A DNA stretch of 64,000 nt, from assembly GCA_001784175.1 (NCBI GenBank), contig MFPR01000017.1, positions 29,024 to 93,023 of the forward strand. The letters run 5' to 3'. A program made the translations under genes and the position numbers. Shown here piece by piece: positions 27 to 35,380 of this stretch (its first letter is position 1; the number at the start of each line of letters is the position of its first letter). The notes below the pieces were generated by a model that searched no databases, was not told the DNA's origin, and worked only from the letters and a program-made list of their open reading frames with translations. Source of the stretch: Candidatus Lindowbacteria bacterium RIFCSPLOWO2_12_FULL_62_27. GTDB taxonomy: Bacteria; Lindowbacteria; 2-12-FULL-62-27.

Positions 27-572
27 GTGGAGACGGTCATCATAGACCTTGCCCCTGTTGCCATTCTTCCCCCGGATGGCCGGGGGGCCCTTCAACCCGC
101 CGGACAAGGATATGCCTTGGCATGTTCTTTGGTGACATCAATGGATTCGTTATCCCTGCTTTGGCCCATAAGAATTGAGAGTGAACTGAATGTGAAACGG
201 TTTATGTACGAGGAGCCCCGATTTTATTTTTCATGCGTGGATGGTCCAGGACAGCTTCATCTGATTAAACAGGAACACACCGCTCCCATAAATGAACACC
301 CGCAAAGCCCGGAAGATCGGCCACAGGTCCAAACCGATGCGGTAGGAGTCCTTGGACAACTTTTTGCCAAAAAGTATAGTCAATCGAGGCGGATGATCTG
401 GTTCTACGATCAAGTCTGTGGGTTTGATCAAGAAACAAGCGCAAGGCTGAAGAGACTCAAGGCCGGGCAAGAATGGATACTCTTGATGAACACCGACGCA
501 AAAGTAGTATCCATGAATTTTCCTCACGATCGGGTGGTCAAAAACGCCGATGAGCTGATTTTAAATAAATGA
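27..572 (+). CDS. hypothetical protein; first gene of the + strand secretion-ATPase operon, possibly 5'-partial
   Basis: GTG-initiated ORF with no in-frame stop between window start and position 27; ends 17 bp before the GspE-like gene; no recognisable motif. Confidence 0.35.
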   Translation: METVIIDLAPVAILPPDGRGALQPAGQGYALACSLVTSMDSLSLLWPIRIESELNVKRFMYEEPRFYFSCVDGPGQLHLIKQEHTAPINEHPQSPEDRPQVQTDAVGVLGQLFAKKYSQSRRMIWFYDQVCGFDQETSARLKRLKAGQEWILLMNTDAKVVSMNFPHDRVVKNADELILNK

Positions 573-588
573 GGAGAAATTTAAAAAA

Positions 589-1779
589 ATGAATGATTCA
601 CTAATCAAACAAATATTATCTTGGACCGACCAACCCGAACCGGATGCCGTCAAAATCGTGGACGCTCTCCTCCAATCTGCCGTCGATGAAAAGGCCAGCG
701 ATCTTTATATTACGCCCAACAACGAACACCTGTCTGTCCGGTTGCGCATCGAAGGCCATTATCGGGAACTCTTGAATCTGCCCAACAGTGTCCGAGATCA
801 ATTGACCGCGCGCCTCAAGGTCTTGGCGCGTTGCCAATCGCACGAATTCCGCCGGCCGCAGGAAGGGCGGATTCAGAGCCTCAACGGTAAAACGCTCGAT
901 ATCCGGGCGTCCTTTCTGCCTGCACTCCACGGTGAGCGAATCGTCTTGCGCGTCTTGCGCGGCGAAATGGAATTGCGCCCCCTGGATGCCCTTGGCTGGA
1001 CGCCGGAACAGCTCAAGCTGTATATCTCCCTCCTTCATCCCATCGACGGCGCGATCCTCTTTACAGGCCCGGCCGGCAGCGGCAAGTCAACGACAATTTA
1101 CGCGACGCTCCGGCACCTCGAGGCCACGGAGGGCAAATATCTGAATTTCGCAACGCTTGAAGATCCCATTGAATACGATTTGCGAACGATTGCGCAGACC
1201 CAGATCGCTCCAGCCGTCGGCTTGGACTTCGCCGCCGGATTGCGTTCCATGCTCCGTCAGGACCCCAACGTCATCATGATCGGAGAAATCCGGGACACAG
1301 AAACCGCCGCCACTGCCATGCGAGCCGCCATGTCCGGCCACCTGATCCTGAGCACCGTCCATGCGCGCGATACGCTCGGCGTCTCTATTCGGCTCATCGA
1401 TATGGGCGTTGAACCCTTTATCGTCGCTTCGTCCATACGCGTCGTCGCCGCCCAGCGGCTTGTGGGATTGAATTGTCCGAAATGCAGTAAACAGGTGCCT
1501 CTAGATCCATATTTGGCCGAGTATTTTCGGTTGGACAAAAATCAGGCGGTGTTTCAGGGGCAGGGCTGTGAGGTGTGTGGACAGACAGGGATTATGGAAA
1601 GAAGAGCCTTGTTCGAACTCTTTATACCCGGAGATAATTTTCAGCAGGCTGTGACAGAACGGACACCGCTTTTCGAGCTTAGAAAACTCTTTCAGCCACG
1701 CCCTTCCCTGAAGGATTCGGCCGCAGTATTGATAAAGGAGGGTTTCTTATCGCCGCTTGAAGCCGGCAGGGTCTTATGA
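589..1779 (+). CDS. GspE/PilB-family secretion ATPase (short form lacking an N1 domain)
   Basis: Walker A GPAGSGKST, Asp box LEDPIEY, Walker B IMIGEIRD, His box LSTVHA, C-terminal tetracysteine CPKC...CEVCGQTG, N2-like region upstream of the ATPase core. Confidence 0.85.
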   Translation: MNDSLIKQILSWTDQPEPDAVKIVDALLQSAVDEKASDLYITPNNEHLSVRLRIEGHYRELLNLPNSVRDQLTARLKVLARCQSHEFRRPQEGRIQSLNGKTLDIRASFLPALHGERIVLRVLRGEMELRPLDALGWTPEQLKLYISLLHPIDGAILFTGPAGSGKSTTIYATLRHLEATEGKYLNFATLEDPIEYDLRTIAQTQIAPAVGLDFAAGLRSMLRQDPNVIMIGEIRDTETAATAMRAAMSGHLILSTVHARDTLGVSIRLIDMGVEPFIVASSIRVVAAQRLVGLNCPKCSKQVPLDPYLAEYFRLDKNQAVFQGQGCEVCGQTGIMERRALFELFIPGDNFQQAVTERTPLFELRKLFQPRPSLKDSAAVLIKEGFLSPLEAGRVL

Positions 1780-2867
1780 ACGCGACCATATGGGGACGGC
1801 TGTTTCGTGACCTGAAAAAATTGGCCGGGTGGATCTGGGGCCAAATCATCGGCTCGGCCCAGCAGTTTAATGATGCGGCCCAATTACTGCTGAAACTCGA
1901 GTTCGCTGTTTCCAGCGGCCTTCCTATTCATGAAGTTCTCGATCCGGAGAGCATGCCCCGGGAGCCCTTGAAACGACAGATGGAAAAACTCGTCAATGAC
2001 GTAAAAGACGGCAAATCCCTTTCATCCGCGCTCCGGGATCATTTCAGTGATGTTTGTAGCCCGCTCTTTTTGTTTGTGATTGAGACCGGAGAAGCGGCCG
2101 GCAACCTTGAAATTACGCTCTCCCGGCTTCGAAATTACTGCGAGAAAAAAATGAAGTACATGGGCCAGTTGGCAGCAGCCTTGACCTATCCCGTTGTCCT
2201 GTCAGCCATCATGTTTCTTGTTCTCTTCTTTCTCTTGACGAAAATCATCCCCACATTTGCAAGCATGTTCACAGCGATGGGGGTCGATCTGCACTGGCTG
2301 ACCGCCCTCATAATCAGAATGTCCGAAATCACTATAAGCTACTGGCCGATCTTGCTCCTGGGTGCTCTTGGTCTCGCATATGCGTTCGTCCTTATCGCCA
2401 AACACCACAATGTATACTGGATGCCGCTATTTGGGCCTATTCTCAAAGTTGCGGACGAAATGGAAATTTTGAACTCGCTTGTATTGGTTTCTTCTCTCCC
2501 GCAGGCTCGGTGGGATGATCTGCTTGGCAATGAAAGACCGCAGGGGTTCAAATACCGCCAACTACTGCATCTCCTCGACGCACATCAGCGGGGCGTCGCG
2601 CTTTCCCAGATCGCAAAGACTTCGGCGATATTTTCGCGGGTAACGGCATGGCACTTGCTCTCGGGCGAACGGCGCGGCTCGGTGGCGAACAGCATCCAGC
2701 GGTGTTTCGATTTCGCTGAAAGACGACTCGAATCTATGACCCTTCTGACGATCCATACTGTTGAACCGACACTTGTCGTCCTGATGGGATGCGTCGTCGG
2801 AATGATCGTCTGCGGAATGTTTTTCCCGATGCTTGAACTTGTCGATTTTGTGTTTCGTCAGTATTGA
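1776..2867 (+). CDS. GspF/PilC-like inner-membrane platform protein, paralog 1
   Basis: 4-bp overlap with ATPase gene; GEAAGNLE motif; hydrophobic segments; C-terminal VEPTLVVLMGCVVGMIVCGMFFPMLEL resembles the PilC/GspF C-terminus. Confidence 0.7.
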   Translation: MNATIWGRLFRDLKKLAGWIWGQIIGSAQQFNDAAQLLLKLEFAVSSGLPIHEVLDPESMPREPLKRQMEKLVNDVKDGKSLSSALRDHFSDVCSPLFLFVIETGEAAGNLEITLSRLRNYCEKKMKYMGQLAAALTYPVVLSAIMFLVLFFLLTKIIPTFASMFTAMGVDLHWLTALIIRMSEITISYWPILLLGALGLAYAFVLIAKHHNVYWMPLFGPILKVADEMEILNSLVLVSSLPQARWDDLLGNERPQGFKYRQLLHLLDAHQRGVALSQIAKTSAIFSRVTAWHLLSGERRGSVANSIQRCFDFAERRLESMTLLTIHTVEPTLVVLMGCVVGMIVCGMFFPMLELVDFVFRQY

Positions 2868-2884
2868 TTCGATGAGGCAATTCC

Positions 2885-3931
2885 ATGCCGCTGTTTAGAA
2901 ATTACGAGTTTGAGGCGGAGATATTCGATTCGCTCGCGGAAGCGATCGTGGCCGGCATACCTTTGTCGCAGGCTATGCAGGAGCTTTCTGAGGACTACAG
3001 AAAAAGCGCGTATGGGCGCGAACTGGCAGCATGGAGCTATAACATCGAATCGGGTAGAGATCTGGTCGACAGCATCAGAGACCACCCCATTTTGAATGAT
3101 CCACAGATCAAAGCATTTCTTTGGCTTGGTCAGAAAACGGGAGCGATGGCCTCGGCATTCAGGTCCGTCGCCCAACGCCTTCGCTACAGCGGTGATCTGG
3201 CAAAAAAACTCGCTTCTGACCTTACCTATCCGGCCATCGTCGTCGTCGGGTTGGGTTGCCTTTTTTTCTTTCTAAATAACATGGTGTTTCCGCATTTTCA
3301 GGCGGTTTACAACTCGTTTAACTCGCCGCTGCCGACGTGGATTCTTTTCATTCTGAAAATGAACGCCTTTATCCTTGATCGCTGGGTGGTCATCGTCGCA
3401 GTCGCAACCATTTTGGCCGCCTGGGCCTTTTTTATTAGAAAACATCGTATCGTCGAGCAACTCTTCGACTGGTTCGTCCTTTCTATGCCATTTACCGGCA
3501 GTCTAATCCGCATGCGTGAATTGTTCACTTTTTCGCACCTCATGGGAGAAATCCTCAAGCAGGATGGGACGGTACAGGACGGTACACACGTGATGGCGGA
3601 AACTGTCAAACCTGGGCCGTTTAGGAAAGTCTGGAAAACGGTGGACGAGAAGGTCAATCAGGGCCTGCGGCTGGACCATGTACTTGCGAATTATCACTGG
3701 CATTTCCCGCTGTTATTTGTTTACGTCCTCAATCTGGGTATCGATAACGACGACCTCGTTCAGACTTTCGAGGATCTAGCCGAACATTACAAAACCGAAT
3801 ATGAGATGACCACCGAACGGTTTACATCCATGTTTGCCGTGTTTCTGGTCTTAGCCGTTGGAAGCGGTCTAATGGGTTTGGCGCTGGCATTCTGGAAACT
3901 CCAGTTCGGGCTGGTCGACCTCTTAGGGTAA
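2885..3931 (+). CDS. GspF/PilC-like membrane protein, divergent paralog 2
   Basis: Same size and hydrophobicity layout as neighbours, GQKTGAMASAF motif in the GE..G..L position; weaker C-terminal conservation. Confidence 0.5.
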   Translation: MPLFRNYEFEAEIFDSLAEAIVAGIPLSQAMQELSEDYRKSAYGRELAAWSYNIESGRDLVDSIRDHPILNDPQIKAFLWLGQKTGAMASAFRSVAQRLRYSGDLAKKLASDLTYPAIVVVGLGCLFFFLNNMVFPHFQAVYNSFNSPLPTWILFILKMNAFILDRWVVIVAVATILAAWAFFIRKHRIVEQLFDWFVLSMPFTGSLIRMRELFTFSHLMGEILKQDGTVQDGTHVMAETVKPGPFRKVWKTVDEKVNQGLRLDHVLANYHWHFPLLFVYVLNLGIDNDDLVQTFEDLAEHYKTEYEMTTERFTSMFAVFLVLAVGSGLMGLALAFWKLQFGLVDLLG

Positions 3932-3938
3932 GCGGAGA

Positions 3939-4982
3939 ATGACATATTTCAATCTGCGGGAATTGACTTTTTTTGTCCATCACTTGGCGCTCTTTGCATC
4001 TCGGGGTGCCGTTCCGCCTGATAGCGGGGCTTACCTATTCGGCAAGCGTGCGAAGGGCCGGCATGCTGAAATATGGAATCAGGTTGCCGCAAAACTGTCG
4101 GCTGGACAGAAACTGTCCTTTGTGCTTCGGGAAATGAAAAATGTCTTTCCGGATTCAATGGTCCGGCTGGTGGAATCGGGTGAACGGGCAGGCCAGCTCA
4201 GAGAATCGCTCAAACAGTACGCCGGGTTCCTCAGATTTCAGACAAAGCTTCGCGAGCTTGTAAGTATCGCCCTCGGTTATCCCACGTTGCTGTTTATTTG
4301 CACAATGGTGGCAGTCGGTTTCCTGCTCTCGTACGTCACCCAAAGATTTATAGACATGTTCAAAGCTTTGGGGGTCACGTTGCCGCTGCCCACCCGCATC
4401 GTATTGGCGGTCAGTGAATTTATGAGCCGTCACGGCATGCAGTTGGTCGTGATTGGCTTTGCGCTGTTTTTGCTTTACCGCCTGCTGAGGAAAATTACGT
4501 CGATCAGAATTTGGCTGGATGCTCTCTCCCTGCATTGGCCTGTTTTTGGCAACCTGCAAGACAAAATGGCCATGCTCAACCTCGCAGAAACGACCGCGAT
4601 GGGCCTGAAATCCGGCATTGCCCTTCACGAATCCTTTGACCTGGCGGCGGTATCAACCACCAACATGTTCCTGGCCAATGGCTTCGTCCGAATTGCTGAC
4701 GACATCAGGTCAGGCTTATCCTTGCGTGAGATTCTCCACAATCGCCCCGGGATCTTGTCCAGGGAAATCTCGATGCTCCTGATCTCCGCTGAACGCCACG
4801 GTCAATTTGACAAGGCTTTAAACAGCTATATTGTTCAACAGCGGGATGTGACCTCCGACTACGTAAAGACGATGACCACCCTGATCGAACCCATCATGGT
4901 TCTCATTTTCGGCGGGGCCATTGGCATGATCGTTATGGCCCTGTTCTTCCCGATGTTCAATATGATCAATATAGTCAAATAA
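3939..4982 (+). CDS. GspF/PilC-like inner-membrane platform protein, paralog 3
   Basis: GERAGQL motif, PLPTRIV segment, C-terminal LIEPIMVLIFGGAIGMIVMALFFPMFNM typical of T2SS F-domain proteins. Confidence 0.75.
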   Translation: MTYFNLRELTFFVHHLALFASRGAVPPDSGAYLFGKRAKGRHAEIWNQVAAKLSAGQKLSFVLREMKNVFPDSMVRLVESGERAGQLRESLKQYAGFLRFQTKLRELVSIALGYPTLLFICTMVAVGFLLSYVTQRFIDMFKALGVTLPLPTRIVLAVSEFMSRHGMQLVVIGFALFLLYRLLRKITSIRIWLDALSLHWPVFGNLQDKMAMLNLAETTAMGLKSGIALHESFDLAAVSTTNMFLANGFVRIADDIRSGLSLREILHNRPGILSREISMLLISAERHGQFDKALNSYIVQQRDVTSDYVKTMTTLIEPIMVLIFGGAIGMIVMALFFPMFNMINIVK

Positions 4983-4993
4983 CCGATCCGGAT

Positions 4994-6274
4994 CTATTCC
5001 GCACTCTTCGCGTTTGACATGGCCTTCATCTCATCCAGGCGTACCTGAAAGACGTCGGCTTCTTTGATCCTGCCCCATTTCTTGTACAGATCCCTCATAT
5101 TCTCCAAGGCTCCGATCATGACTGAATGCCCTCGACCCAAGCAGGTTTCAATAATCGGAAGTGCTTTCAAATACATGCCCTCGGCCTCCTGATATCGACC
5201 CTGTATGTAATACACCTCAGCCAAATCCATCATTCTCCGGCCGGCTCCAAGGCTGTCTGACCCGCGGGCCGCGTTTTCAATTTCGATGATTCTTTTATAA
5301 ACACGCTCAGCCTCTTCATACCTGCGCTCATTGAAATAAAATTCGGCGAGCCTCAACAGGCTCGTATTAATGTGTGGGTGGTCCGCGCCAAAGGTTTTTT
5401 CGCTGATTTCAACGGCTCTCTTATAGTGGTTTTCTGCTCGACCCTTTTCGTCAGTCACCCTATATATTTTGGCAAGCTCGATAAGAAGCGGAATCAGCAG
5501 GGAAGCGTCCATGCCGTTTTTAGACTCTGTGATTACAACGGCTCTTTCATACGCTTCCCTAGCCTTGTCTTTGAATCCACCATGCAAGTACGCCTGCCCC
5601 AATCCCGATAGTGTCCATGCCAGGTCCGGGTGACTTGTCCCCAGTAGCTTTTCATTCATAGCTAACGCGCGATGAAGTACGTTGATCGCTTCATCATATC
5701 GATGTAGTTCTCGATACAGGTCCGCCAAATTCATCAGGCCTATGGCAATGTCTGCATGCTCTTTACCAAGCGTCCCTTCCCACATGGTCAGCGAGTCTTT
5801 GTAGTATTTCTCTGCCTCGTCATGTTTTCCCTCGGCACGAGCCAGATCTCCGAGGTGATTGATGCTGGCAGCCACGCGTGGATGCGTTGATCCATATTTC
5901 TCTTGTCTGAGACACAGCGCCGCGCCATGCGCTTTCCGCGCGGCGGCATAATGTCTTGAAGACATCGCGATTGCACCGAGAAGGTCGTGGGCGTCGGCAT
6001 AATCTGGATGGTGCCCGATAAAGGCTTTTAGTTTCTCCGTTGCCTCATCCGCAGAGTACTTATCTGCTCGATAGTCAACATATATCTCGGCCAACTGCTC
6101 CGCCATTTCTATTTCTACAATCAAATCAGGCACATCTAAATCTGACTTCTCTCCGGCATTGACAATCTGTTCCAACTCATCGAGCGTTCGAATCAATGAT
6201 CGGTATTGGTATTGTCGGTAGGATTCGCGCAATTTTCCGATGCGCACAGAAATTGGATGCTTGGAATTAACCAT
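4994..6274 (-). CDS. TPR-repeat protein (kinesin-light-chain-like TPR_10/12 repeats)
   Basis: Repeated 42-residue units with A..Y..AL pattern along the whole protein. Confidence 0.8.
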   Translation of the reverse strand: MVNSKHPISVRIGKLRESYRQYQYRSLIRTLDELEQIVNAGEKSDLDVPDLIVEIEMAEQLAEIYVDYRADKYSADEATEKLKAFIGHHPDYADAHDLLGAIAMSSRHYAAARKAHGAALCLRQEKYGSTHPRVAASINHLGDLARAEGKHDEAEKYYKDSLTMWEGTLGKEHADIAIGLMNLADLYRELHRYDEAINVLHRALAMNEKLLGTSHPDLAWTLSGLGQAYLHGGFKDKAREAYERAVVITESKNGMDASLLIPLLIELAKIYRVTDEKGRAENHYKRAVEISEKTFGADHPHINTSLLRLAEFYFNERRYEEAERVYKRIIEIENAARGSDSLGAGRRMMDLAEVYYIQGRYQEAEGMYLKALPIIETCLGRGHSVMIGALENMRDLYKKWGRIKEADVFQVRLDEMKAMSNAKSAE

Positions 6275-7589
6275 CTCGCCCAGCCAATATGCCTGTCGAC
6301 TTTTTGGCCACTATGAAGCGCTCATCGGGTGACCATTTCGGAACGCTCAGCCATCCGAAATTCTCATGATTTTGTAGGATTTTCTTCCTGGTTTTGTCGT
6401 TTGTATCCACAACCGTGGGGAACAGCCTACGCGCATCAGGGCCCGGAGATTCCATCAAAAGGATTCTATCGGATATCATTGACCACTGGGGGTCGTGTAT
6501 GAAATGTCCAGTATAGATGTGATCTTTTCGCTTCGTGTCAACGTTATAGGTATAGAGTTCGTTGGCATGGCCCTTCCCCCATTTGACATAGCAAATAATG
6601 GGATTTGTAGAATGCGCCATACTCAGGAATGAAATTCGGCCGTTGGGCGTTCCGCTTTCGCCATGAGGGCCGTTGATATCCTCATCGACATGATCCAATT
6701 GGCCAGAGTCCAAATCTACCAACGCCAGATCGCTTGCTATCTTGCCTTTGGCTTTATGTTTGAAAGCTATCCTGTTCCGACCTGTTATCCATGTAAATAT
6801 ATCCACGTCGTATTCCTTGAGTACGTCCTCAAATAGATGCGCTCTTCGTTGTAAATCGTAAATCTTAAGTTCCGATACAAAATGAAATTTACCATCTGTC
6901 ACATCGTCACCTATGACGGATGTCATAAGATCGTCGATTTCTTCTTTGGAAAGTACCTGTTCTTCCCGATCGCATGGGGGAACATTACTCGCTCGCGTTA
7001 TCCGATAGGCCAGGTATCGTCCGTTTTTAGAGACAATGTGATCGCCAATAAAGCTGTCAGGCTCGTCATTACTGATGAGTCGGTCGAAACCTTTCTTCTT
7101 CAAATTAAACAAACATATCTCCATGGGCCCACTCTTATTGGCTATCCTTCGCGGCCCTTCAATGACGGCCAACAATTCACTCTCGTTAGGGATCCAGATG
7201 GGATCCTGTATTGATCGCTCTTGCTCGACGTGGACTTGATAATTTCTATTTTGTGCCGGGTCAAAAATGCCCAACACACGTTGCTCATACTCCGGTCTCG
7301 ACGGGGTCACATGTGCAATAAGTCTGCCCGAAGGAGACCATCTGGCATTGTGAACCATTGGCGGGCCACACGCGAGAAGTTTTTCGGGCGCTTCCAAAAT
7401 AATAAAGCCGTGTTCCTTCGTCCCGTGAATAGTTTCAACAAGATATTTTCCACCTGACGGACACCAAGCGTGCCCTCTACAATCAGCAGCCGCAGGGACG
7501 GAGTGGACCGCCTCTTTCACGCAATCAATACATAAAAACTCCCAGAGCATCGGAATGGTCCGTTTCATCGGAGAACCCGACTCGATCAT
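6267..7589 (-). CDS. beta-propeller protein (PD40/TolB-like repeats)
   Basis: Recurrent WSPSGRLIA / SKNGRYLAY / WSPDERFIV blade-like motifs; overlaps downstream TPR gene by 8 bp. Confidence 0.5.
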   Translation of the reverse strand: MIESGSPMKRTIPMLWEFLCIDCVKEAVHSVPAAADCRGHAWCPSGGKYLVETIHGTKEHGFIILEAPEKLLACGPPMVHNARWSPSGRLIAHVTPSRPEYEQRVLGIFDPAQNRNYQVHVEQERSIQDPIWIPNESELLAVIEGPRRIANKSGPMEICLFNLKKKGFDRLISNDEPDSFIGDHIVSKNGRYLAYRITRASNVPPCDREEQVLSKEEIDDLMTSVIGDDVTDGKFHFVSELKIYDLQRRAHLFEDVLKEYDVDIFTWITGRNRIAFKHKAKGKIASDLALVDLDSGQLDHVDEDINGPHGESGTPNGRISFLSMAHSTNPIICYVKWGKGHANELYTYNVDTKRKDHIYTGHFIHDPQWSMISDRILLMESPGPDARRLFPTVVDTNDKTRKKILQNHENFGWLSVPKWSPDERFIVAKKSTGILAGRDG

Positions 7590-8308
7590 AGAACGATCTT
7601 CTCTCGGTGTTTAAAGTATTTCGGATGCCATTCATATTCACGCCTTATCCTCTTTCCCGCATAAACGTAGTAGACCTCGGTACCCTCCGGATTGAATTCG
7701 TAGTCGGCGGCTTCCTGTATTTCCACGATTTTTCTAAATTTCCATCTCACCAATTCCCCATATGAATTCAAATATGGCTGCTCGTAAATTTTGAATTCTT
7801 TTCTGAGGCGCCTCTTTGCGTCACTGCCGTCCCTCGCCATGACCAACATGTACCTGTCTTCGTGAGTCTGATTGCCGCTTCGGTGTCCCTCTATTTGGCA
7901 GATGAATCTGGCATGGACGCAGAATAAGATGCGCGCAGGTTTCTGGTACGGCCTTTTCTTAATGCCGGCAATCGCCTCTATCGATATTGAAGTTACTTCC
8001 CTCATTTTCAAAATGATGCCCAAATCTTTGGCGTATATGGCAGCCGAAATTCCACCGGGTGCCTTTGTGGAGCCGATTCGTTGATAATTTCGGTCCGGCC
8101 ACTTTGAAACCGCCCTTCTGTATTTTTCGCGCCGGATTTTTTCCATCAGCTTTACTCTTTCTTTCGGCGGATATGGAAGCAGTTTCTTGAAAGGATCCCT
8201 AAAATAGGCCTGGATCGACAATTGCCTTTTGCCCATGTGAAGAATGGCGGAGGCGGTCCGGCCAAATCTCTCCATACCGTCCAATTTCTCTATAAATTTT
8301 GGCGGCAT
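7586..8308 (-). CDS. hypothetical protein
   Basis: ORF co-oriented and overlapping the beta-propeller gene by 4 bp; ORF-track start at 8407 is TTG, internal ATG at 8308 or 8275 more likely; no known motif. Confidence 0.35.
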   Translation of the reverse strand: MPPKFIEKLDGMERFGRTASAILHMGKRQLSIQAYFRDPFKKLLPYPPKERVKLMEKIRREKYRRAVSKWPDRNYQRIGSTKAPGGISAAIYAKDLGIILKMREVTSISIEAIAGIKKRPYQKPARILFCVHARFICQIEGHRSGNQTHEDRYMLVMARDGSDAKRRLRKEFKIYEQPYLNSYGELVRWKFRKIVEIQEAADYEFNPEGTEVYYVYAGKRIRREYEWHPKYFKHREKIVL

Positions 8309-8486
8309 TAGAATAATACGCAGAGAAAAAATAAAAATAGTGTTACGGCAATGGTGGACCAGATCGACATGCCGCTCTGAATGAAAAAGAAAAAAATAAT
8401 ACTGCAAATGATGAGGCCGGCTACAATTTTTATCTTTAAGAGATTGTCGACGTAAAAATTCGACGGCTTATTTTTATTCTCGTCCA

Positions 8487-9734
8487 TTATTTCACATCAT
8501 TCGGCTCACGCCGTTTAGTATCAGAACTGGCTTCAGACACCGTATCCGAAATATCCATCTTTTGACGTTGAACACTCACTTTTTTGATCTGCGCCGGTAT
8601 TTGCTTGTCGTCTTTCACCAGATTAATCATCTCAAACATGGGAAAAAACATGGCCATTACGACGATCCCGATCGCTCCGCCAAGACATACGACCATCAGT
8701 GGTTCGATCAAGTGGGATACTGCCAAGACCGTCTCATCCACGATTCTTTCGTAGCTGCTCGATGATTCCATGAGTTTCTGTCCCAAGTCATCGTCTCGTT
8801 CGGCCTCTTTTACTGCCAGAACAATAATGTTGAGTGGGAAAACCGTGGCGTGCTTCATTGAATCCGAAAGGTTATTGCCTTGTTCCAGATGCGTTAATAC
8901 AAGGTCTAATTCTGCCGCAATGACAGAATTATCAATTACATCCTGTAAAGTTCTTACGGCAGCGATGACGTCGACTCCGGATTTCAGCAGAATGCCCAAG
9001 ATATTCAGACTGCGAGAAACCAAATTCTTTAAAAGAATGTCCCCTATGATAGGTAATTTTAGAATCATTCGATCCATAACAGGCCGAATCCTGCAGGGTC
9101 TGGTCATGAACACGTAAATCGCAAATGAATAGAGTGCGATGAAAATTAAGAAACCCCACCAGTACTCGACCAGAATCTTGCTCATTTCTAGGACAATCCT
9201 GGTTGGCAGGGGCAACTTTACACCCATGTCTTCAAACATCTTTCCAAAGGTCGGAATAATCTTGAAAAGTAAAAATGCGATGACAAGTATCGAAATTGCG
9301 GCCATGACAACCGGATACGTCATTATTCCCCTCAATGTTGCTGTTCTTAGATATTCCTTTCCGATCTTATGGGCCAGATGGCTCAGTGCCGTCCCGAGCA
9401 CCCCATTCATCTCACCGGCCTTCACCGTCTGGATATACATGGGGCTGAAGTATACCCGATGCTTCGATATAGCCTCGGACAAAGACGAACCGCGGTTCAC
9501 ATCGTGTTGTAATTTCTTCAGCAATCTTTTCATTCTTTGGGTTTGCATTCGCTGTTCCAGCAACGACAGCGCTCGCGGGAGGGAATCGCCAGACTTCAAA
9601 AACGTCCCGAGGTTACGGGTGAAATTTGCAATATCCTCGATAATTATTTGCGCCTTAAATAAATGTCGGCCGTTTAGTTCCATGCGGCTCCATCCTCTGT
9701 CATGGGCGCCAAGCCACTCGCCACGCGATGGCAT
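8487..9734 (-). CDS. GspF/PilC-like inner-membrane platform protein, paralog 4
   Basis: GEMNGVLGTAL motif, PLPTRIV, C-terminal LIEPLMVVCLGGAIGIVVMAMFFPMFEM; alternative start at 9683 (MELNGRHLF) has a GAGGA ribosome-binding site. Confidence 0.7.
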   Translation of the reverse strand: MPSRGEWLGAHDRGWSRMELNGRHLFKAQIIIEDIANFTRNLGTFLKSGDSLPRALSLLEQRMQTQRMKRLLKKLQHDVNRGSSLSEAISKHRVYFSPMYIQTVKAGEMNGVLGTALSHLAHKIGKEYLRTATLRGIMTYPVVMAAISILVIAFLLFKIIPTFGKMFEDMGVKLPLPTRIVLEMSKILVEYWWGFLIFIALYSFAIYVFMTRPCRIRPVMDRMILKLPIIGDILLKNLVSRSLNILGILLKSGVDVIAAVRTLQDVIDNSVIAAELDLVLTHLEQGNNLSDSMKHATVFPLNIIVLAVKEAERDDDLGQKLMESSSSYERIVDETVLAVSHLIEPLMVVCLGGAIGIVVMAMFFPMFEMINLVKDDKQIPAQIKKVSVQRQKMDISDTVSEASSDTKRREPNDVK

Positions 9735-9747
9735 GAATCCGGAAACC

Positions 9748-10521
9748 TCAGCTTCTCTTGATTATCTCTAAACAACCTCTTTTATATCTGCCCGATTTTT
9801 CCGTCATGACATTAATATCAGTATGAAAACTATCGGAACAAAAGTTAAATTTGCCTTGTTGTTTCTCGGATTTCCAATACTCGAGGCCGGCCATAGTTTC
9901 GATCCTACTGAACATATCCGGCACGACTTTAAGTGGCACGGACGGCATTTTTTCCAATTTCCCGAGTTTTAACAATTCGACTTTTAAGCTGTGTTCTTCG
10001 GGCGAAAATATTATTTGATCCGCGCCCTCCCTGATCGCCTGCAAGAGAATCATATGAACCAATCTGCTAACGGGGGCGTTATGGTGATCTACTATTTCTA
10101 AGTTGAATATTTTCGTGTCGTGCGTTTGCATGTCCTTTATGACTTGTTCTAATGACGTCAAGAGATCAGCCCTGTTTAAGAGTGTCGCATCGTATTGTGC
10201 TATAAGCTGCTCTATAGATTGAACAAAATCCGTACTATCTTCTGCCCTTTCTACATCCTTCCAAAAATCACGAGGGAAATACCCTTGTGCATGATGGGCA
10301 ATGGATCCGGATAGCCGCGTACCATGCGAAACTTCTTGGGCAATTCGAATGTTTATTCCGAGTGCCACAAAAACTATGAGATCCCGATCGAGAGACAAAA
10401 ATCGAACCACGTCTGTCAATCTATATCCTTCCTTGATGAGTTTGGCGAGTTTTGCGAGCCAGATGTATGCATATTTCTTCTTTATAAACTCCGGCGCGAA
10501 TTTAAATAGTTTCAGCCACAT
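9748..10521 (-). CDS. secretion-ATPase N-terminal (N2-like) domain protein without ATPase core; possible truncated gspE-like paralog
   Basis: C-terminal half RLVHMILLQAIREGADQIIFSPEEHSLKVELLKLGKLEKMPSVPLKVVPDMFSRIETMAGLEY matches the N2 region preceding the Walker A in GspE/PilB; no Walker A or Asp/His boxes; directly upstream of a GspF-like gene. Confidence 0.45.
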   Translation of the reverse strand: MWLKLFKFAPEFIKKKYAYIWLAKLAKLIKEGYRLTDVVRFLSLDRDLIVFVALGINIRIAQEVSHGTRLSGSIAHHAQGYFPRDFWKDVERAEDSTDFVQSIEQLIAQYDATLLNRADLLTSLEQVIKDMQTHDTKIFNLEIVDHHNAPVSRLVHMILLQAIREGADQIIFSPEEHSLKVELLKLGKLEKMPSVPLKVVPDMFSRIETMAGLEYWKSEKQQGKFNFCSDSFHTDINVMTEKSGRYKRGCLEIIKRS

Positions 10522-10582
10522 CTTGGCATTTCATCTCCGATAACGAGGATCGAGGCCGACTCAAGTATATCCCATGATGTTT

Positions 10583-11347
10583 TCATGGCGTTGTCTTCCT
10601 TTTGAATTCTGCGATGTCTTTCACTGTTTGATCTATGAGTCCCTCTATTTTCTTATCTTTGATGTCGTGCTCCTTTAGATCCTGCTTGATGTTCGCTAAT
10701 GTCTTGGTGGTATCATCCATAAGTTGATCGAATTGTTTTCTATCCTGTTTTACCTCTTTCTTTACCCACAGATATCCAGCCCATGCAATGATGATGCATG
10801 GTATGGCTACCAGCCACAATCTCGAAGAGGCGGCCTGAAAGCGCATCAATAGTAAAGACGTGATACCGGCTAAAATAACGGCGAATAGGCAGTAGATAAG
10901 TACCACCCGCCGTCGACTTAATCTCTGGCGGAGAACATTATCAGAATCATTTAGAGGGCCCGTTCGTATGAGCTGAATATTGAACTCGTCGACTTCAAGC
11001 TTTATCTCCCCTAGCATATTGTCGAATGTAAGATCGCCCGTGCCGGGGTCATAGGTCAAATCATTAAACATCTCGTCGACGTGGTCATTGCCGTATGTAA
11101 TGACACAGCTTTTCACATTTTTAACGTATAGAAGGTAGTATCCGGAGTGTGGTTCATCTGTCCGTTTGAAAGGGATCTTTAGCAATCTTTGATCGGAATC
11201 GAATTCTAATTCGTTTCGGTGATACCACTGATCGTGAATAACATCGAGCAGCGTACCAATCTGATGCTCTGAAAAGACACCGGAGAACTCCAGAGTCATC
11301 TGAGTGCGGGGCTGTGCGAACGGCGGCGGGGCTTGGAATAGAAACAC
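10583..11347 (-). CDS. hypothetical membrane protein with C-terminal coiled-coil
   Basis: Two predicted transmembrane helices (VVLIYCLFAVILAGITSLLL, LWLVAIPCIIIAWAGYLWV) followed by a K/E/D-rich helical tail. Confidence 0.4.
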   Translation of the reverse strand: MFLFQAPPPFAQPRTQMTLEFSGVFSEHQIGTLLDVIHDQWYHRNELEFDSDQRLLKIPFKRTDEPHSGYYLLYVKNVKSCVITYGNDHVDEMFNDLTYDPGTGDLTFDNMLGEIKLEVDEFNIQLIRTGPLNDSDNVLRQRLSRRRVVLIYCLFAVILAGITSLLLMRFQAASSRLWLVAIPCIIIAWAGYLWVKKEVKQDRKQFDQLMDDTTKTLANIKQDLKEHDIKDKKIEGLIDQTVKDIAEFKRKTTP

Positions 11348-11369
11348 TGCCGCCGCGGCCGAGTTTTCA

Positions 11370-11837
11370 TCATGAACCGATTTTGGAGGGACTGTTTTTA
11401 GTCTGCTCTATGATGGCCTTCGGGCTACACAGCCAAAGAGCCCATAAACTGAGGAGCGTAAATCCAATTTGGATTGGATAACTCCCGCCCAGCATGATCC
11501 AAACTAAACCATATATGGCAATCACGTCGCAAAAAGCCCATAAAATAATCCCATATAGGAGTATGGGATCTTGTGTTTTGTTTCCAGTTTCACTCGACGA
11601 TTTGTAAAAACATTTCAAGAGAAATGGCCGTACTTTGAAATTCACATGGATGCACGCCGATATGCTTACTGCAAGAACAACTAGGATGGGAAACACAAAA
11701 TCTGGCGGTGTTACACCACCCTTTCTCTGTCCGAGCAGCGTATGGCCAATATACAGATAGGCCCAAATGGCGTGAACAAATGCCCAATAAATATATTTCA
11801 TATTTTGAGGCGGTTCTGTGGCTGATCTTATGTTCAT
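11370..11837 (-). CDS. hypothetical polytopic membrane protein
   Basis: 155-aa ORF with four hydrophobic segments. Confidence 0.4.
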   Translation of the reverse strand: MNIRSATEPPQNMKYIYWAFVHAIWAYLYIGHTLLGQRKGGVTPPDFVFPILVVLAVSISACIHVNFKVRPFLLKCFYKSSSETGNKTQDPILLYGIILWAFCDVIAIYGLVWIMLGGSYPIQIGFTLLSLWALWLCSPKAIIEQTKNSPSKIGS

Positions 11838-11839
11838 CT

Positions 11840-12529
11840 CTACCTCGCCCCCACCCTCGTGCCGGCCAGCAGCATTTCCTGGACCGCATCACCCTCGTCA
11901 CGATCAATATCCAGCTCATAGTCAAACCCGGAGGACACGCTATCCAGACATCCATAGGTTATGTGTCTTGTCTGCTCTGTAAATGCCGATAGGGATGGCG
12001 CGGCGGCATCCGTGTCAGACCACTTGAGTTTCTCAACCTTCCCGTCGCGGAGGGCATTCTTAAAGCGGACAATTTGTTCGCGTGCCTTGCGAACAACCTG
12101 TCTGGGATTGCGTGAAAATTTCACCTGCCCGACTTCAACCACATGTCCATCACCGCGCCGAATGACAACCAGATCCAGCTCGCCGATCGTTTTGCCTCCT
12201 CCCATGTATTTCAAACTGGTTGCCACCAGGTAATCGTCGAGTGGATACCGAGTCCACTGAAGATGTATCCGTAAAAGTTCTTCGAGAATAAATCCGACGT
12301 TTCCCCAATCACGATCGACACCCGAAAGAGTCTTCGCGAAAAATTTGATGCGGTCAGCGCTACCGATAGACGCTTTCGGCGTCCCCGCCAGCCTTAAAAT
12401 TCTTTTGTCATCGTGGTGGGATTTCTGCTGTCTTGTTCCGATGGGCATGTCGGATTTTGCGAATAGACCATGTGGAAACGTAAAAAGAAGAAATAGGCTA
12501 CATACGGCGGTGGCTGACAATCTGCGCAT
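11840..12529 (-). CDS. hypothetical secreted protein, possible PD-(D/E)xK-like fold
   Basis: N-terminal signal-peptide-like segment AVCSLFLLFTFPHGLFA; GELDLVVIRRGDGHVVEVGQVK resembles a D...E.K nuclease core. Confidence 0.4.
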   Translation of the reverse strand: MRRLSATAVCSLFLLFTFPHGLFAKSDMPIGTRQQKSHHDDKRILRLAGTPKASIGSADRIKFFAKTLSGVDRDWGNVGFILEELLRIHLQWTRYPLDDYLVATSLKYMGGGKTIGELDLVVIRRGDGHVVEVGQVKFSRNPRQVVRKAREQIVRFKNALRDGKVEKLKWSDTDAAAPSLSAFTEQTRHITYGCLDSVSSGFDYELDIDRDEGDAVQEMLLAGTRVGAR

Positions 12530-13906: not shown

Positions 13907-13910
13907 CGAC

Positions 13911-14243
13911 CTATGCTGGTTTCCAGAAAGGAAATCTCCTGCGAACCCAGAACTCGTATTTCAATTCTGGCTTGCCCCGATGGAACTTCTGAAAAAACTC
14001 CGGGTCCGTCGGATGCGTGTCCGGCAAATCCCGGTGTTGCCGAAGATCCGCCCGCTCATCCCGAATGACCACCTGCACCTTGCTCTGCGGCTTGTCGCGT
14101 TCGATCGTCACGGTCACCGTTGTAGTTTCCGTGGCTGTCGCCGCCGAACCTGTTCCAACTGCCGGCGGTACAGCCGCCACGGCCGACTCCGCTCTGTTTT
14201 TTCTGAATCTCATCATGTTCCCTCCCCCCATTTCTTGGCTCAC
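13911..14243 (-). CDS. hypothetical protein
   Basis: 110-aa ORF tightly spaced between phage-like genes. Confidence 0.3.
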   Translation of the reverse strand: MSQEMGGGNMMRFRKNRAESAVAAVPPAVGTGSAATATETTTVTVTIERDKPQSKVQVVIRDERADLRQHRDLPDTHPTDPEFFQKFHRGKPELKYEFWVRRRFPFWKPA

Positions 14244-14249
14244 GCCGCT

Positions 14250-14897
14250 TCAGCCGCTCGCCACTTTCTCGATCTCTTCAAACCCACTCCCTTGCTCCAC
14301 AGCCCGGTTCCACAAATTGAGCAGCATCGCATCCCGCGTAGCCGGATCCAGCACATTCGGCCGGCCACCTGGTATCGGCGTGGCAACCGCGCTGATCCCC
14401 AGCATCTCCAAATCCCGCCGACAGCTTTCGGAGAGCCGAACAATCAGATCCAGTACGGGGTTGACCTCTCCCTCGACCACCTCGCCCGTCTTGACCATGT
14501 ATTCGTACCCGCGAAAAATCCGCATCGTCTTGCTCACAAAATTCTGCAGGATCCACCGCGCCCGCGGATCGTTCATATCCAGCCCATACCGGTTCACAAA
14601 CGCGATCGCATATTCCTCCGCCTCGGCATACTCCTGCGTCCGAACCCGCTTGGAATACATCCCGTGCTTGAATGCGTTCTCATTCCCGGCGGCCCCTGTC
14701 GAAAGTCCGCCATGCCAAAGACATCGTCCAGACGAGCCTTCGGTATGCGGCGGCCATTCGCAGACGGCGCCGCTATGAAGCCGCGCCCCGCAGACCGCCC
14801 GCCCGAGTCGTTTTTCCGCTCCCTGAATTTTTTTGAGATGTGTCTTGTCCCATCTGGGCGACGGCATCGTTCCTTGCCGTGCCACGCTCTCACTCAT
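14250..14897 (-). CDS. phage small-terminase-like protein (zinc-ribbon plus HGG/KHG motif)
   Basis: CGARLHSGAVCEWPPHTEGSSGRCLWHGGLSTGAAGNENAFKHGMYS resembles a motif recalled from phage small terminase / DNA-packaging proteins. Confidence 0.4.
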   Translation of the reverse strand: MSESVARQGTMPSPRWDKTHLKKIQGAEKRLGRAVCGARLHSGAVCEWPPHTEGSSGRCLWHGGLSTGAAGNENAFKHGMYSKRVRTQEYAEAEEYAIAFVNRYGLDMNDPRARWILQNFVSKTMRIFRGYEYMVKTGEVVEGEVNPVLDLIVRLSESCRRDLEMLGISAVATPIPGGRPNVLDPATRDAMLLNLWNRAVEQGSGFEEIEKVASG

Positions 14898-20387: not shown

Positions 20388-20440
20388 TTTCAATCTCCTC
20401 CCCCCTTGCGGGGGAGGCTGGGTGGGGGGTCGAGGACAAC

Positions 20441-35335: not shown

Positions 35336-35380
35336 AAGTACATTCGCAATCCTCTATACATATTGGAGTACTGTAAACAC

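What the first reader, a model, noticed from the sequence alone, without database searches (positions are those of the whole stretch)
27..12529. Lower-GC cluster with one GspE/PilB-like ATPase and four GspF/PilC-like platform paralogs, without pilin or secretin genes in view
Two convergent operons carry a short GspE/PilB-family ATPase with a tetracysteine motif, three tandem GspF-like genes, and on the opposite strand a fourth GspF-like gene next to an ATPase N-domain-only gene, plus TPR, beta-propeller and small membrane proteins. A 4:1 platform-to-ATPase ratio with no prepilin-like gene, prepilin peptidase or secretin recognised in the window is atypical for T2SS, T4P, Tad or Com loci. The composition is clearly lower in GC than the core half of the window, suggesting horizontal acquisition.
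Basis: partly seen in the sequence, partly recalled or inferred. Interest (0 to 1): 0.6.

Follow-up and report, generated by a model that had tools for sequence, protein, structure and literature searches.

The report
Pilin-less pilus-motor cluster, four platform paralogs
A foreign, low-GC gene island in an uncultivated groundwater bacterium (Candidatus Lindowbacteria) carries the motor of a type IV pilus/type II secretion-like machine: one ATPase, four very divergent membrane "platform" genes and a fusion protein not found described in the literature searched, but no filament subunit, peptidase or outer-membrane pore gene. It is a real and unusual variant of a known machine, and its function is still unknown.

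Summary
Window 589-4982 (+) encodes a GspE/PilB-type ATPase without the N1 domain and with all catalytic motifs and the tetracysteine site. It is followed, overlapping or closely spaced, by three full-length GspF/PilC paralogs. A fourth platform gene lies on the convergent strand.

- ORF 27-572 is the tail of a 1026-aa membrane protein with an M48 (HtpX-like) peptidase domain.
- The "N-domain-only" gene is a soluble chimera of a GspF cytoplasmic domain and a GspE N2 domain.
- The beta-propeller could not be verified.

No pilin, A24 peptidase or secretin was found in 73 kb (window plus 9.4 kb upstream). The cluster is 42-55% GC against a 62-68% core. It lies in an island of at least 45 kb with a portal and small-terminase remnant, type I R-M, an integrase and tRNA-Tyr.

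The ATPase has no relative above 47% identity. The chimera has two relatives among 1.84 billion representative proteins. One of them sits beside a homologue of a 905-aa membrane protein encoded just upstream of the window.

Distant relatives (L019, L022) carry one ATPase, two tandem platforms and pilins. Tandem platforms therefore recur, and this locus is the extreme, pilin-less case.

Best reading: an acquired type IV filament (T4F)-family motor with a hetero-oligomeric platform. This is a new variant of a known kind, of moderate interest.

The parts
27..572 (+). C-terminal 181 aa of a 1026-aa polytopic membrane protein with an HtpX-like M48 zinc-peptidase domain (HEFAH...EIAAD). The gene starts about 2.5 kb upstream of the window and ends 16 nt before the ATPase start.
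   Evidence: Peptidase_M48, 62.7 bits, residues 657-839; 7 predicted TM segments; weak HtpX matches.
589..1779 (+). GspE/PilB-type ATPase, 396 aa, N2 domain plus C-terminal ATPase domain only (no N1). All catalytic motifs and the tetracysteine site are intact.
   Evidence: T2SSE 320 bits; GspE 375 bits, PilB 329 bits, both below the equivalog cut-offs; TadA and FlaI about 30-40 bits; motifs; EpsE delta-N1 1p9r, E 1e-80; nearest relatives 44-47% identity.
1776..2867 (+). Platform paralog Fa (363 aa, two T2SSF domains). Its start overlaps the ATPase stop (ATGA). The Y-P (TMS1) and E-P (TMS3) channel pairs are present.
2885..3931 (+). Platform paralog Fb (348 aa, two T2SSF domains). It is the most divergent: Y-P is kept, but the E-P pair and the FFPMF motif of TMS3 are lost.
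   Evidence: Residue roles are from PMC10790770.
3939..4982 (+). Platform paralog Fc (347 aa, two T2SSF domains), with Y-P and E-P present. Its stop lies 11 nt from the stop of the convergent TPR gene, at the position where related operons carry pilin genes.
4994..6274 (-). Tetratricopeptide-repeat protein (426 aa, TPR_10/TPR_12 type, no predicted TM or signal sequence). Last gene of the minus-strand operon.
6267..7589 (-). 440-aa beta-rich protein, possibly a PD40/TolB-like propeller (unverified).
   Evidence: faint Tricorn_2nd; no Pfam; no PDB relative; three WxP[SND] motifs; AF2 pLDDT 34, unusable.
7586..8308 (-). 240-aa protein with a DUF4288 domain.
   Evidence: (31.3 bits).
8308..8487 (-). 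59-aa hydrophobic membrane protein. Not pilin-like.
8487..9734 (-). Platform paralog Fd (415 aa), the most canonical GspF/PilC of the four, with Y-P and E-P present.
   Evidence: 141 bits; GspF 250 bits, cut-off 424; M. xanthus PilC 3jc8, E 3e-47.
9748..10521 (-). 257-aa soluble chimera: N-terminal GspF-type cytoplasmic helical domain, a disordered linker, and a C-terminal GspE/PilB N2 (NTD) domain. It has no ATPase core.
   Evidence: two true relatives, P0122 at 48% and P0123 at 36% identity; T2SSF 26.6 bits in P0123; T2SSE 25.4 bits in P0122; PilB N2, E 4.5e-11; AF2 pLDDT 72.9; PilB/EpsE N2 rmsd 1.2-1.7 A; EpsF cytoplasmic domain 3c1q TM 0.62.
10583..11347 (-). 254-aa membrane protein: soluble N-domain of about 145 aa, two TM segments, and a charged C-terminal tail. 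No family assignment.
11370..11837 (-). 155-aa multi-TM membrane protein, no family.
11840..12529 (-). 229-aa protein with an N-terminal signal-peptide-like segment, no family. It lies 15 nt downstream of a phage portal gene, and GC jumps at that junction.

Best explanation
This is a horizontally acquired, orphan motor module of the type IV filament (T4F/TFF) superfamily, from the bacterial GspE/PilB-GspF/PilC branch.

Shown:
- An N1-less but catalytically intact ATPase is closely linked to three full-length, mutually very divergent platform paralogs, in one operon that also contains a large M48-peptidase membrane protein.
- A convergent operon adds a fourth, more canonical platform protein, a soluble chimera of a platform cytoplasmic domain and an ATPase N2 domain, membrane proteins, a TPR protein and others.
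- No filament subunit, prepilin peptidase or secretin lies within 73 kb.

Inferred:
- The ATPase forms the usual hexamer and docks on a hetero-oligomeric platform built from Fa, Fb and Fc. The most economical version is a 1:1:1 heterotrimer, which matches the current model of one platform trimer per ATPase hexamer. Fb would be a degenerate structural subunit, because it has lost the conserved Glu-Pro channel pair.
- The chimera carries both halves of the ATPase-NTD/platform-Cyt contact, so it would plug into that interface. It could couple the single ATPase to the fourth platform, or regulate docking.
- The machine would act on pilins encoded elsewhere in the genome or on unrecognisably divergent membrane proteins.
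- The plus-strand operon appears truncated at the position where related operons (L019, L022) carry their pilin genes.
For: - Family assignment and intact motifs.
- Operon linkage: ATGA overlap between ATPase and Fa, then 17-nt and 7-nt spacers. GC3 is uniform at 0.60-0.64 from the ATPase to Fc, against 0.43-0.55 in the minus operon.
- The paralogs share 19-31% identity, which makes them as far apart from each other as from foreign GspFs. Even so, each keeps two T2SSF domains and the TMS1 Tyr-Pro pair. Only Fb lost the TMS3 Glu-Pro pair that is present in Fa, Fc, Fd and three outgroup platforms.
- Those residue pairs line the PulF trimer channel (PMC10790770).
- The hexamer-to-trimer stoichiometry and the NTD-to-Cyt contact come from PMC10191384 and PMC10790770.
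- Chimera architecture. Its conservation at 48% and 36% identity in two other organisms argues for selection.
- One relative of the chimera (L017) lies beside a homologue (35% identity over 923 aa, E 1e-174) of the 905-aa membrane protein encoded upstream of the window.
- A conserved operon of one ATPase, two tandem full-length platform paralogs and pilins occurs in two species whose ATPases are 41-42% identical to this one. L022 also has standalone N2-only and MshEN-only proteins, a TPR protein and a WD40 protein.
- Island context.
Against: - No pilin, prepilin peptidase or secretin was found, so two of the four universal T4F core proteins are missing locally.
- Hetero-oligomer formation was not tested. 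Only monomer structure prediction was available.
- The four paralogs are not monophyletic by pairwise scores. They could have accreted from separate transfers rather than co-evolved.
- The relatives have two tandem platforms, not three, which fits a dimer model as well as a trimer model.
- The plus and minus operons differ in composition and may be unrelated neighbours.
- In L017 the chimera has no ATPase or platform gene in the 12 kb visible.
- There are no expression data, and only one organism carries the full arrangement.
Confidence: 0.5

Rival explanations
1. Island junkyard: the cluster is a mosaic of fragments from several T2SS/T4P systems that accumulated on a mobile island. It no longer forms a working machine, and the multiplicity of platform genes reflects accretion, not stoichiometry.
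For: - Paralogs are no closer to each other than to foreign GspFs.
- There are three compositional blocks.
- Convergent stops lie 11 nt apart, at the position where relatives have pilins.
- Fb lost a conserved motif.
- A prophage remnant sits next door.
- The ATPase lacks N1, and a stray N2 domain lies on another gene.
Against: - All 14 ORFs are intact and tightly packed with overlapping or short junctions.
- The ATPase motifs are complete.
- Each platform keeps both T2SSF domains.
- The chimera and the 905-aa protein are conserved in other organisms.
- The N1-less ATPase architecture also occurs in ordinary complete loci (P0057 in L014).
Confidence: 0.2
2. Ordinary but scattered T4P/T2SS-like system: the motor genes are here, and the pilins, prepilin peptidase (often shared between systems) and any secretin are encoded elsewhere in the Lindowbacteria genome. 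Each platform paralog would serve a different pilin set, or would be redundant.
For: - Prepilin peptidases are known to be shared between systems (PMC6668835).
- Relatives with tandem platforms do have pilins.
- The rest of the genome could not be searched.
Against: - The cluster is foreign in composition and orphan in sequence. Dependence on host pilins would require cross-compatibility.
- A 4:1 platform-to-ATPase ratio and the chimera are not features of any described T2SS, T4aP, T4bP, MSH, Com or Tad locus.
Confidence: 0.15
3. Interference or hijack module of a mobile element: truncated and chimeric motor parts (N1-less ATPase, Cyt-N2 chimera, degenerate platform) mimic the ATPase-platform interface of the host's own pilus or secretion machines. 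They would block or re-route those machines, for example as superinfection exclusion against pilus-dependent phages.
For: - The chimera joins the two domains that contact each other in the motor.
- In L017 the chimera occurs without adjacent ATPase or platform genes, in a low-GC patch next to a toxin-antitoxin pair.
- The locus lies in an island with phage and defence genes.
- Phage proteins that target PilB are known (own knowledge, not checked here).
Against: - No match to any PADLOC defence model.
- Four full-length membrane platforms and an intact ATPase are far more than a decoy needs.
- Nothing was found in viral or plasmid collections.
Confidence: 0.1
4. Non-filament machine: the ATPase-platform motor has been recruited to work with the 1026-aa M48 membrane protease and the 905-aa membrane protein, to extract, process or export membrane or periplasmic proteins without building a pilin fibre.
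For: - The M48 gene ends 16 nt before the ATPase gene and has a complete HExxH...ExxAD site.
- The 905-aa protein co-occurs with the chimera in a second organism.
- No pilins were found.
Against: - No T4F-family motor without pilin substrates was found in the papers read here, which state that pilins occur in every T4F system.
- The M48 gene differs in GC3 (0.50) from the ATPase-Fc block.
- The M48 homologue search returned nothing, not even the protein itself, so it is uninformative.
Confidence: 0.05

Closest known systems
Type II secretion system / type IVa pilus motor (GspE-GspF, PilB-PilC)
   Same: - The ATPase scores best against GspE (375 bits) and PilB (329 bits) models and has the N2 domain, ATPase core and tetracysteine site.
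- The platforms have the two-T2SSF-domain, three-TM architecture with the conserved Tyr-Pro and Glu-Pro pairs.
   Different: - The ATPase has no N1 domain.
- All scores fall below the equivalog cut-offs.
- There are four platform genes instead of one.
- No pilins or pseudopilins, A24 peptidase, secretin, GspC/L/M or PilMNOP were found in 73 kb.
Uncharacterised operons in L019 and L022/L023 (metagenomic): one ATPase, two tandem platform paralogs, three pilin-like genes
   Same: - The ATPase is 41-42% identical to the window's.
- Tandem full-length platform paralogs directly follow the ATPase.
- L022 also has standalone ATPase N-domain proteins (163-aa N2-only, 343-aa MshEN-only), a TPR protein and a WD40 protein nearby.
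   Different: - They have two platforms, one with a long N-terminal membrane extension, not three plus one.
- They carry N_methyl pilins.
- They have no M48 gene, no Cyt-N2 chimera and no 905-aa protein.
- Their GC matches the host contig.
Tad/Flp pilus platform pair TadB-TadC
   Same: More than one platform gene per ATPase, presumed to form a hetero-oligomeric platform (PMC6668835).
   Different: - TadB and TadC are half-size, single-T2SSF-domain products of a gene fission. Here each paralog is full length with two domains.
- The ATPase is not TadA-like (28 bits).
Com pilus of monoderms (ComGA-ComGB)
   Same: A short ATPase lacking the N1-type domain, and a minimal machine without a secretin (ComGA 227 bits; PMC10191384).
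   Different: - Scores are below the ComGA and ComGB cut-offs.
- No ComGC-GG pilins and no ComC peptidase.
- Four platforms instead of one.
L017 locus (ERR14064755 contig): Cyt-N2 chimera P0123 beside a 912-aa membrane protein
   Same: It shares the only two detectable orthologues of the accessory proteins: the chimera (36% identity) and the 905-aa protein (35% identity over 923 aa). It also lies in a low-GC patch of a high-GC contig.
   Different: No T2SSE or T2SSF gene lies within the 12 kb visible, and the contig ends 1.2 kb after the chimera gene.

Membership tests
Type IV filament (TFF/T4F) superfamily system | Extension ATPase of the GspE/PilB/TadA/FlaI family | tested here: met
   T2SSE 320 bits. 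Walker A, Walker B, Asp box and His box are intact.
Type IV filament (TFF/T4F) superfamily system | Platform protein of the GspF/PilC family | tested here: met
   Four genes, each with two T2SSF domains.
Type IV filament (TFF/T4F) superfamily system | Type IV pilin(s) with a class III signal peptide. Required in the generic TFF model and named one of four universal core proteins (PMC6668835, PMC10191384). | tested here: not met
   No motif, no N_methyl-like ORF and no homologue of nine pilin or pilin-like sequences from related loci in 73.4 kb. The rest of the genome was not searchable.
Type IV filament (TFF/T4F) superfamily system | Prepilin peptidase (Peptidase_A24) | tested here: not met
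   No Pfam A24 hit in the called genes. An A24 query found nothing in the six-frame ORFs. The peptidase may be encoded elsewhere.
Type II secretion system (Gsp) | Secretin GspD and the GspC/L/M assembly platform. The ATPase N1E domain binds GspL. | tested here: not met
   No secretin. The ATPase aligns to GspE only from model position 108, so N1E is absent. GspE scores 375 bits against a cut-off of 630.
Type IVa pilus (Pil) | PilB with an N-terminal MshEN-type domain, PilT retraction ATPase, PilMNOPQ and PilA | tested here: not met
   PilB scores 329 bits against a cut-off of 676. There is no second ATPase, no secretin and no pilin.
Tad/Flp pilus | TadA-type ATPase, single-domain TadB/TadC platforms and Flp pilin | tested here: not met
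   TadA family scores 28 bits. The platforms have two T2SSF domains each. There is no Flp-like ORF.
Com pilus | ComGA and ComGB equivalogs, ComGC-GG pilins and ComC | tested here: not met
   ComGA scores 227 bits against a cut-off of 300. ComGB scores 88-125 bits against a cut-off of 240. There are no pilins.
Integrated genomic island / mobile element | Deviant composition, a site-specific recombinase at a tRNA, and flanking direct repeats | tested here: inconclusive
   - GC of 0.42-0.60 against a 0.62-0.68 core.
- Tyrosine integrase at 34163-35335, 46 nt from tRNA-Tyr at 35381-35464.
- No att repeat was found and the left end was not reached. Low GC continues at least 9.4 kb upstream of the window.
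Known anti-phage defence systems (PADLOC) | Match of cluster proteins to a defence-system model | tested here: not met
   Only marginal P-loop and TPR matches, E > 1e-3 except for generic TPR.

The most novel reading that the evidence does not exclude
The three tandem platform paralogs are a natural 1:1:1 heterotrimeric platform under one ATPase hexamer. The Cyt-N2 chimera is a natural fusion of the two sides of the motor-platform interface. Together with the M48 membrane protease and the 905-aa membrane protein they form a mobile, pilin-independent machine derived from the type IV filament motor. This would be a new functional branch of the superfamily, and independent genetic evidence for the disputed 6:3 ATPase-to-platform stoichiometry.
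Probability: 0.15. Interest if true: 0.75.

Novelty: new variant of a known kind. Interest (0 to 1): 0.52.

Why it matters
[quoted passage not shown] So is the way the platform couples to the hexameric ATPase.

A locus in which three different full-length platform genes follow a single ATPase gene would be a natural symmetry-broken version of that complex. A separate protein in the same locus fuses a platform cytoplasmic domain to an ATPase N2 domain. Both offer handles for structural work, because distinguishable subunits and a pre-formed interface are easier to study.

The locus also shows, together with L019 and L022, that full-length platform paralogy exists outside Tad. The reference survey of the superfamily did not record this.

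If the machine really works without pilins, it would be a new use of this motor. If it is only a scattered or decaying system, the finding is a curiosity of one uncultivated genome.

Tried and rejected
- **Viral origin.** Scans of IMG/VR with the ATPase, the chimera alignment and the 905-aa alignment found no relatives. Matches in the GenBank phage collection were 35-40% GspE genes on records that look bacterial. Rejected.
- **Plasmid origin.** No match for the chimera or the 905-aa protein.
- **Walking upstream.** Scans with the FliG_C-domain fragment found nothing in the metagenome or genome collections. Scans with the 905-aa alignment returned nothing in the genome collection and only the same organism in the metagenome collection. 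The left end of the island and the rest of the genome therefore stayed out of reach.
- **M48 protein relatives.** The search for relatives of the 1026-aa M48 protein returned nothing, not even the protein itself. This is uninformative.
- **Word-indexed search for the chimera.** It found only the protein itself. The exhaustive search was needed to find P0122 and P0123.
- **att sites.** No repeat longer than 12 nt of the tRNA-Tyr region.
- **Promoter and terminator scan.** Counts were at or below the shuffle expectation.
- **AF2 of the 440-aa protein without an alignment.** pLDDT 34, discarded.
- **afdb50 fold library.** Unavailable.
- **PDB sequence searches.** Nothing for the M48 protein, the 905-aa family or the 440-aa protein.
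- **Internal duplication of the 905-aa protein.** Suggested by recurring motifs (FE[IV]VGVP, WDRPxVFDY, DxDGD), but a BLAST self-comparison did not support it.
- **Archaellum-like or Tad-like origin.** Rejected, because FlaI and TadA scores are only about 30-40 bits.

Full report
**Source and reality of the sequence.** The ATPase protein of the window is found, identical, on 20 contigs from several independent assemblies. NCBI holds a shorter call of the same gene, annotated as a hypothetical protein of Candidatus Lindowbacteria bacterium RIFCSPLOWO2_12_FULL_62_27. Loci L001-L010 are 100% identical to the window over up to 11.8 kb.

**Observation check.** Pfam and NCBIfam confirm one GspE/PilB-type ATPase (589-1779, T2SSE 320 bits). 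They also confirm three tandem platform genes (1776-2867, 2885-3931, 3939-4982) and a fourth on the other strand (8487-9734), each with two T2SSF domains.
- The ATPase has Walker A, Asp box, Walker B, His box and two CxxC pairs.
- It aligns to GspE models only from position 108 and to the N1-deleted EpsE crystal construct. It is therefore an N2-plus-core enzyme.
- It scores far better against GspE and PilB than against PilT, TadA or FlaI, but stays below every equivalog cut-off.
- Gene junctions are tight. ATPase and Fa overlap in ATGA, followed by 17-nt and 7-nt spacers. The minus-strand genes also overlap or sit 1-61 nt apart.
- Per-gene GC is 0.42-0.55, against 0.62-0.66 in core genes to the right of 35.5 kb.

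- ORF 27-572 is not a gene of its own. It is the C-terminal 181 residues of a 1026-aa protein with seven predicted TM segments and a Peptidase_M48 domain with HEFAH and EIAAD motifs. That gene ends 16 nt before the ATPase gene.
- The 257-aa 'ATPase N-domain-only' protein is a chimera. A profile of it and its two relatives hits the N2 domain of PilB and EpsE (E 4.5e-11) and, weakly, the EpsF cytoplasmic domain.
  - One relative passes the Pfam threshold for T2SSF in its N-terminal half. Another passes T2SSE in its C-terminal half.
  - An AF2 model (pLDDT 72.9) shows a helical domain, a disordered linker and an alpha/beta domain.
  - Foldseek matches the alpha/beta domain to PilB/EpsE/PilF N2 at 1.2-1.7 A over about 110 residues. 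It matches the helical domain to EpsF 3c1q with a target-normalised TM-score of 0.62.
- The 'beta-propeller' remains unverified.

**Missing parts.** Two motif scans found nothing credible in 26 kb or in the whole 73.4-kb composite: a strict prepilin regex and a permissive class-III signal-peptide scan over every start codon. I also used phmmer with proteins taken from the neighbourhoods of the ATPase's relatives: a secretin, an A24 peptidase, and nine pilin or pilin-like sequences (six with an N_methyl Pfam hit). None hit any six-frame ORF of the composite. A T2SSF query used as a control recovered all four platform genes. The upstream 9.4 kb encodes:
- the M48 protein and a 64-aa TM protein;
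- a 905-aa multi-TM protein and a 411-aa protein;
- a diacylglycerol kinase and a 101-aa protein;
- an endonuclease/exonuclease/phosphatase-family (Exo_endo_phos) protein and a FliG_C-domain protein.

None of these is a pilus or secretin component by Pfam.

**How unusual is it?** The nearest ATPases in 5.8 billion clustered proteins are only 44-47% identical. I opened ten of their neighbourhoods; L014/L015 and L022/L023 are pairs of the same locus.
- L011, L016 and L021 have one platform gene plus N_methyl pseudopilins.
- L014/L015 have a 387-aa N1-less ATPase with a secretin, a pilin, an A24 peptidase and one platform.
- L012, L013 and L020 have a lone ATPase.
- The exception is informative. 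L019 and L022/L023 come from two species whose ATPases are 88% identical to each other and 41-42% identical to the window's. They share an operon of ATPase, a long T2SSF protein, a 346-aa T2SSF protein and three small pilin-like genes, one with a clear N_methyl motif.
  - Their two platform paralogs are 30-32% identical to each other and conserved at 64% and 73% between the species.
  - L022 also carries a 163-aa protein that is just an N2 domain, a 343-aa MshEN-only protein, a second ATPase, a TPR protein and a WD40 protein.

Tandem full-length platform paralogs and split-off ATPase N-domains are therefore a recurring theme. The reference survey of the superfamily does not record it: it reports platform homologue pairs only for Tad/Epd and some archaeal systems, as a gene fission (PMC6668835). 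The window is the extreme case, with three platforms plus one. Unlike the relatives, it has no pilin genes. Fc stops 11 nt from the convergent TPR stop, exactly where the relatives carry pilins. GC3 changes there from 0.60-0.64 to 0.43-0.55, which suggests the operon was truncated or overwritten at its 3' end.

**The paralogs.** Pairwise identities are 19-31%. The paralogs are as far from each other (36-125 bits) as from platform proteins of other phyla (55-130 bits). All seven sequences compared keep the TMS1 Tyr-Pro pair. All keep the TMS3 Glu-Pro pair except Fb, which has FAVF there and has also lost the FFPMF motif. In PulF these pairs line the constriction of a trimeric channel. Blocking the channel abolishes pilus assembly and secretion (PMC10790770). 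Pelicic's synthesis likewise proposes one platform trimer per ATPase hexamer, with ATPase NTDs contacting platform Cyt domains. It lists pilin, prepilin peptidase, ATPase and platform as the four universal core proteins (PMC10191384).

**Wider system.** An exhaustive HMMER search of 1.84 billion representative proteins found just two true relatives of the chimera.
- P0122 (48% identity) lies on a 1-kb contig.
- P0123 (36% identity) lies on contig L017. In L017 the chimera gene sits about 1.4 kb from a 912-aa protein on the opposite strand, with two small genes between. That protein is 35% identical over 923 residues (E 1e-174) to the 905-aa membrane protein encoded upstream of the window. Both lie in a low-GC patch of a high-GC contig, next to a PIN/MazE pair.
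- No other gene is shared, and no T2SSE or T2SSF gene is visible in the 12 kb of L017. The contig ends 1.2 kb after the chimera.

The unit defined by co-occurrence therefore reaches beyond the window start, and the chimera may not strictly need a dedicated motor next to it. Other proteins made only of N2 domains exist, such as P0124 and P0125 with two copies each.

**Context.** The cluster lies in at least 45 kb of deviant composition. This region contains:
- a phage portal (phrog_3753, E 3e-45) and a small-terminase-like gene directly upstream of the minus operon;
- a type I R-M system and a Gp49-like toxin;
- an AAA+/S8 subtilase-domain gene pair, RadC and a SEC-C-motif protein;
- a tyrosine integrase 46 nt from tRNA-Tyr, where GC rises to core values.

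No att repeat was found and the left end was not reached. No cluster protein matches a known defence model.

**Mechanism.**
- Shown: this is a T4F-superfamily motor (ATPase plus platforms) of the bacterial GspE/PilB branch. It is intact at the motif level, operonic, foreign in composition and orphan in sequence.
- Inferred, roughly even odds: the three tandem paralogs form a hetero-oligomeric platform under one ATPase hexamer, with Fb as a degenerate structural subunit. A 1:1:1 trimer is the simplest fit to current models. The two-paralog relatives fit a dimer equally well, and co-assembly was not testable here.
- Inferred, weaker: the chimera docks at the NTD-Cyt interface, coupling the single ATPase to Fd or regulating docking.
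- Unknown: the substrate. It could be pilins encoded elsewhere, divergent small membrane proteins of the locus, or none.

The rivals are listed with their tests in the Rival explanations section: an accreted non-functional mosaic, an ordinary scattered system, an interference module of a mobile element, and a protease-linked non-filament machine.

**Verdict.** It is a new variant of a known kind, not a new kind. The core proteins are clear family members, but the system fails the membership tests of T2SS, T4aP, Tad and Com, and of the generic TFF model (no pilin). Interest is moderate (0.52). It bears on an open question, platform stoichiometry and coupling, and it reveals an architecture I did not find described in the papers searched. 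However, it rests on one uncultivated genome, and no function can yet be assigned.

Noticed in passing
window 12545-14897 (-): Phage portal gene (453 aa; phrog_3753 E 3e-45; about 25% identical to Bacillus, Brevibacillus and Enterococcus phage portals), a 110-aa ORF and a small-terminase-like gene (phrog_9231, E 2e-6). They sit directly upstream (15-nt gap) of the cluster's minus operon, and GC jumps from 0.52 to 0.60 at the junction. No large terminase, capsid or tail genes are in the window, so this is a prophage remnant or a satellite-like fragment.
   Followed up: partly
window 34163-35464 (+): Tyrosine integrase (390 aa) ending 46 nt before tRNA-Tyr(GTA). GC rises from about 0.50-0.56 to 0.62-0.68 immediately to the right. 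The island lies on the 5' side of the tRNA, which is the unusual side. No direct repeat of the tRNA region longer than 12 nt occurs in the window or in the 9.4 kb upstream.
   Followed up: partly
window 17703-23358 (+): Complete type I restriction-modification operon (HsdR 894 aa, HsdM 490 aa, HsdS 501 aa) inside the island. It is followed by a Gp49/HigB-like toxin gene (23519-23893).
   Followed up: no
window 26882-30413 (+): AAA+ ATPase (376 aa) overlapping by 8 nt an 802-aa protein with a Peptidase_S8 subtilase domain. RadC (30410-31075) and a 544-aa SEC-C-motif protein follow. This is possibly a two-gene defence-like pair. These two proteins were not tested against PADLOC.
   Followed up: no
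L001:1-776 (-), about 8.6 kb upstream of the window start: Low-GC gene for a protein of about 321 aa whose only recognisable part is a FliG C-terminal domain (Pfam 81 bits; TIGR00207 76 bits against a cut-off of 227). It is a rotor-switch-like domain in the same foreign region as a pilus-type motor. Any relation between the two is unknown.
   Followed up: partly
L001:3947-6664 (-) and L017:5908-8646 (-): A 905/912-aa multi-TM protein family, 35% identical between two organisms. It has recurring FE[IV]VGVP, WDRPxVFDY and DxDGD (FG-GAP-like) motifs in two halves. It has no Pfam, NCBIfam or PDB relative, and it co-occurs with the Cyt-N2 chimera in both organisms. A BLAST self-comparison did not confirm an internal duplication.
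   Followed up: partly
L022:3424-3915 (+) and L022:6917-7948 (-); P0124, P0125: Standalone ATPase N-terminal-domain proteins exist elsewhere: a 163-aa N2-only protein and a 343-aa MshEN-only protein beside a two-platform operon, and proteins with two tandem N2 domains and no ATPase core. Split-off motor N-domains may be an under-described class of pilus-motor accessory proteins.
   Followed up: partly
L019:4876-7224 (+) and L022:10344-12257 (+): Platform proteins with N-terminal extensions of about 290-440 residues that contain coiled-coil-like and multi-TM segments ahead of the two T2SSF domains. Each is paired with a normal-size platform paralog, and the pair is conserved in two species.
   Followed up: partly
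window 589-1779 (+): The NCBI annotation of this ATPase (OGH60571.1, 325 aa, 'hypothetical protein') starts 71 codons too late and cuts off most of the N2 domain. The 396-aa call aligns to EpsE and PilB from residue 17.
   Followed up: yes
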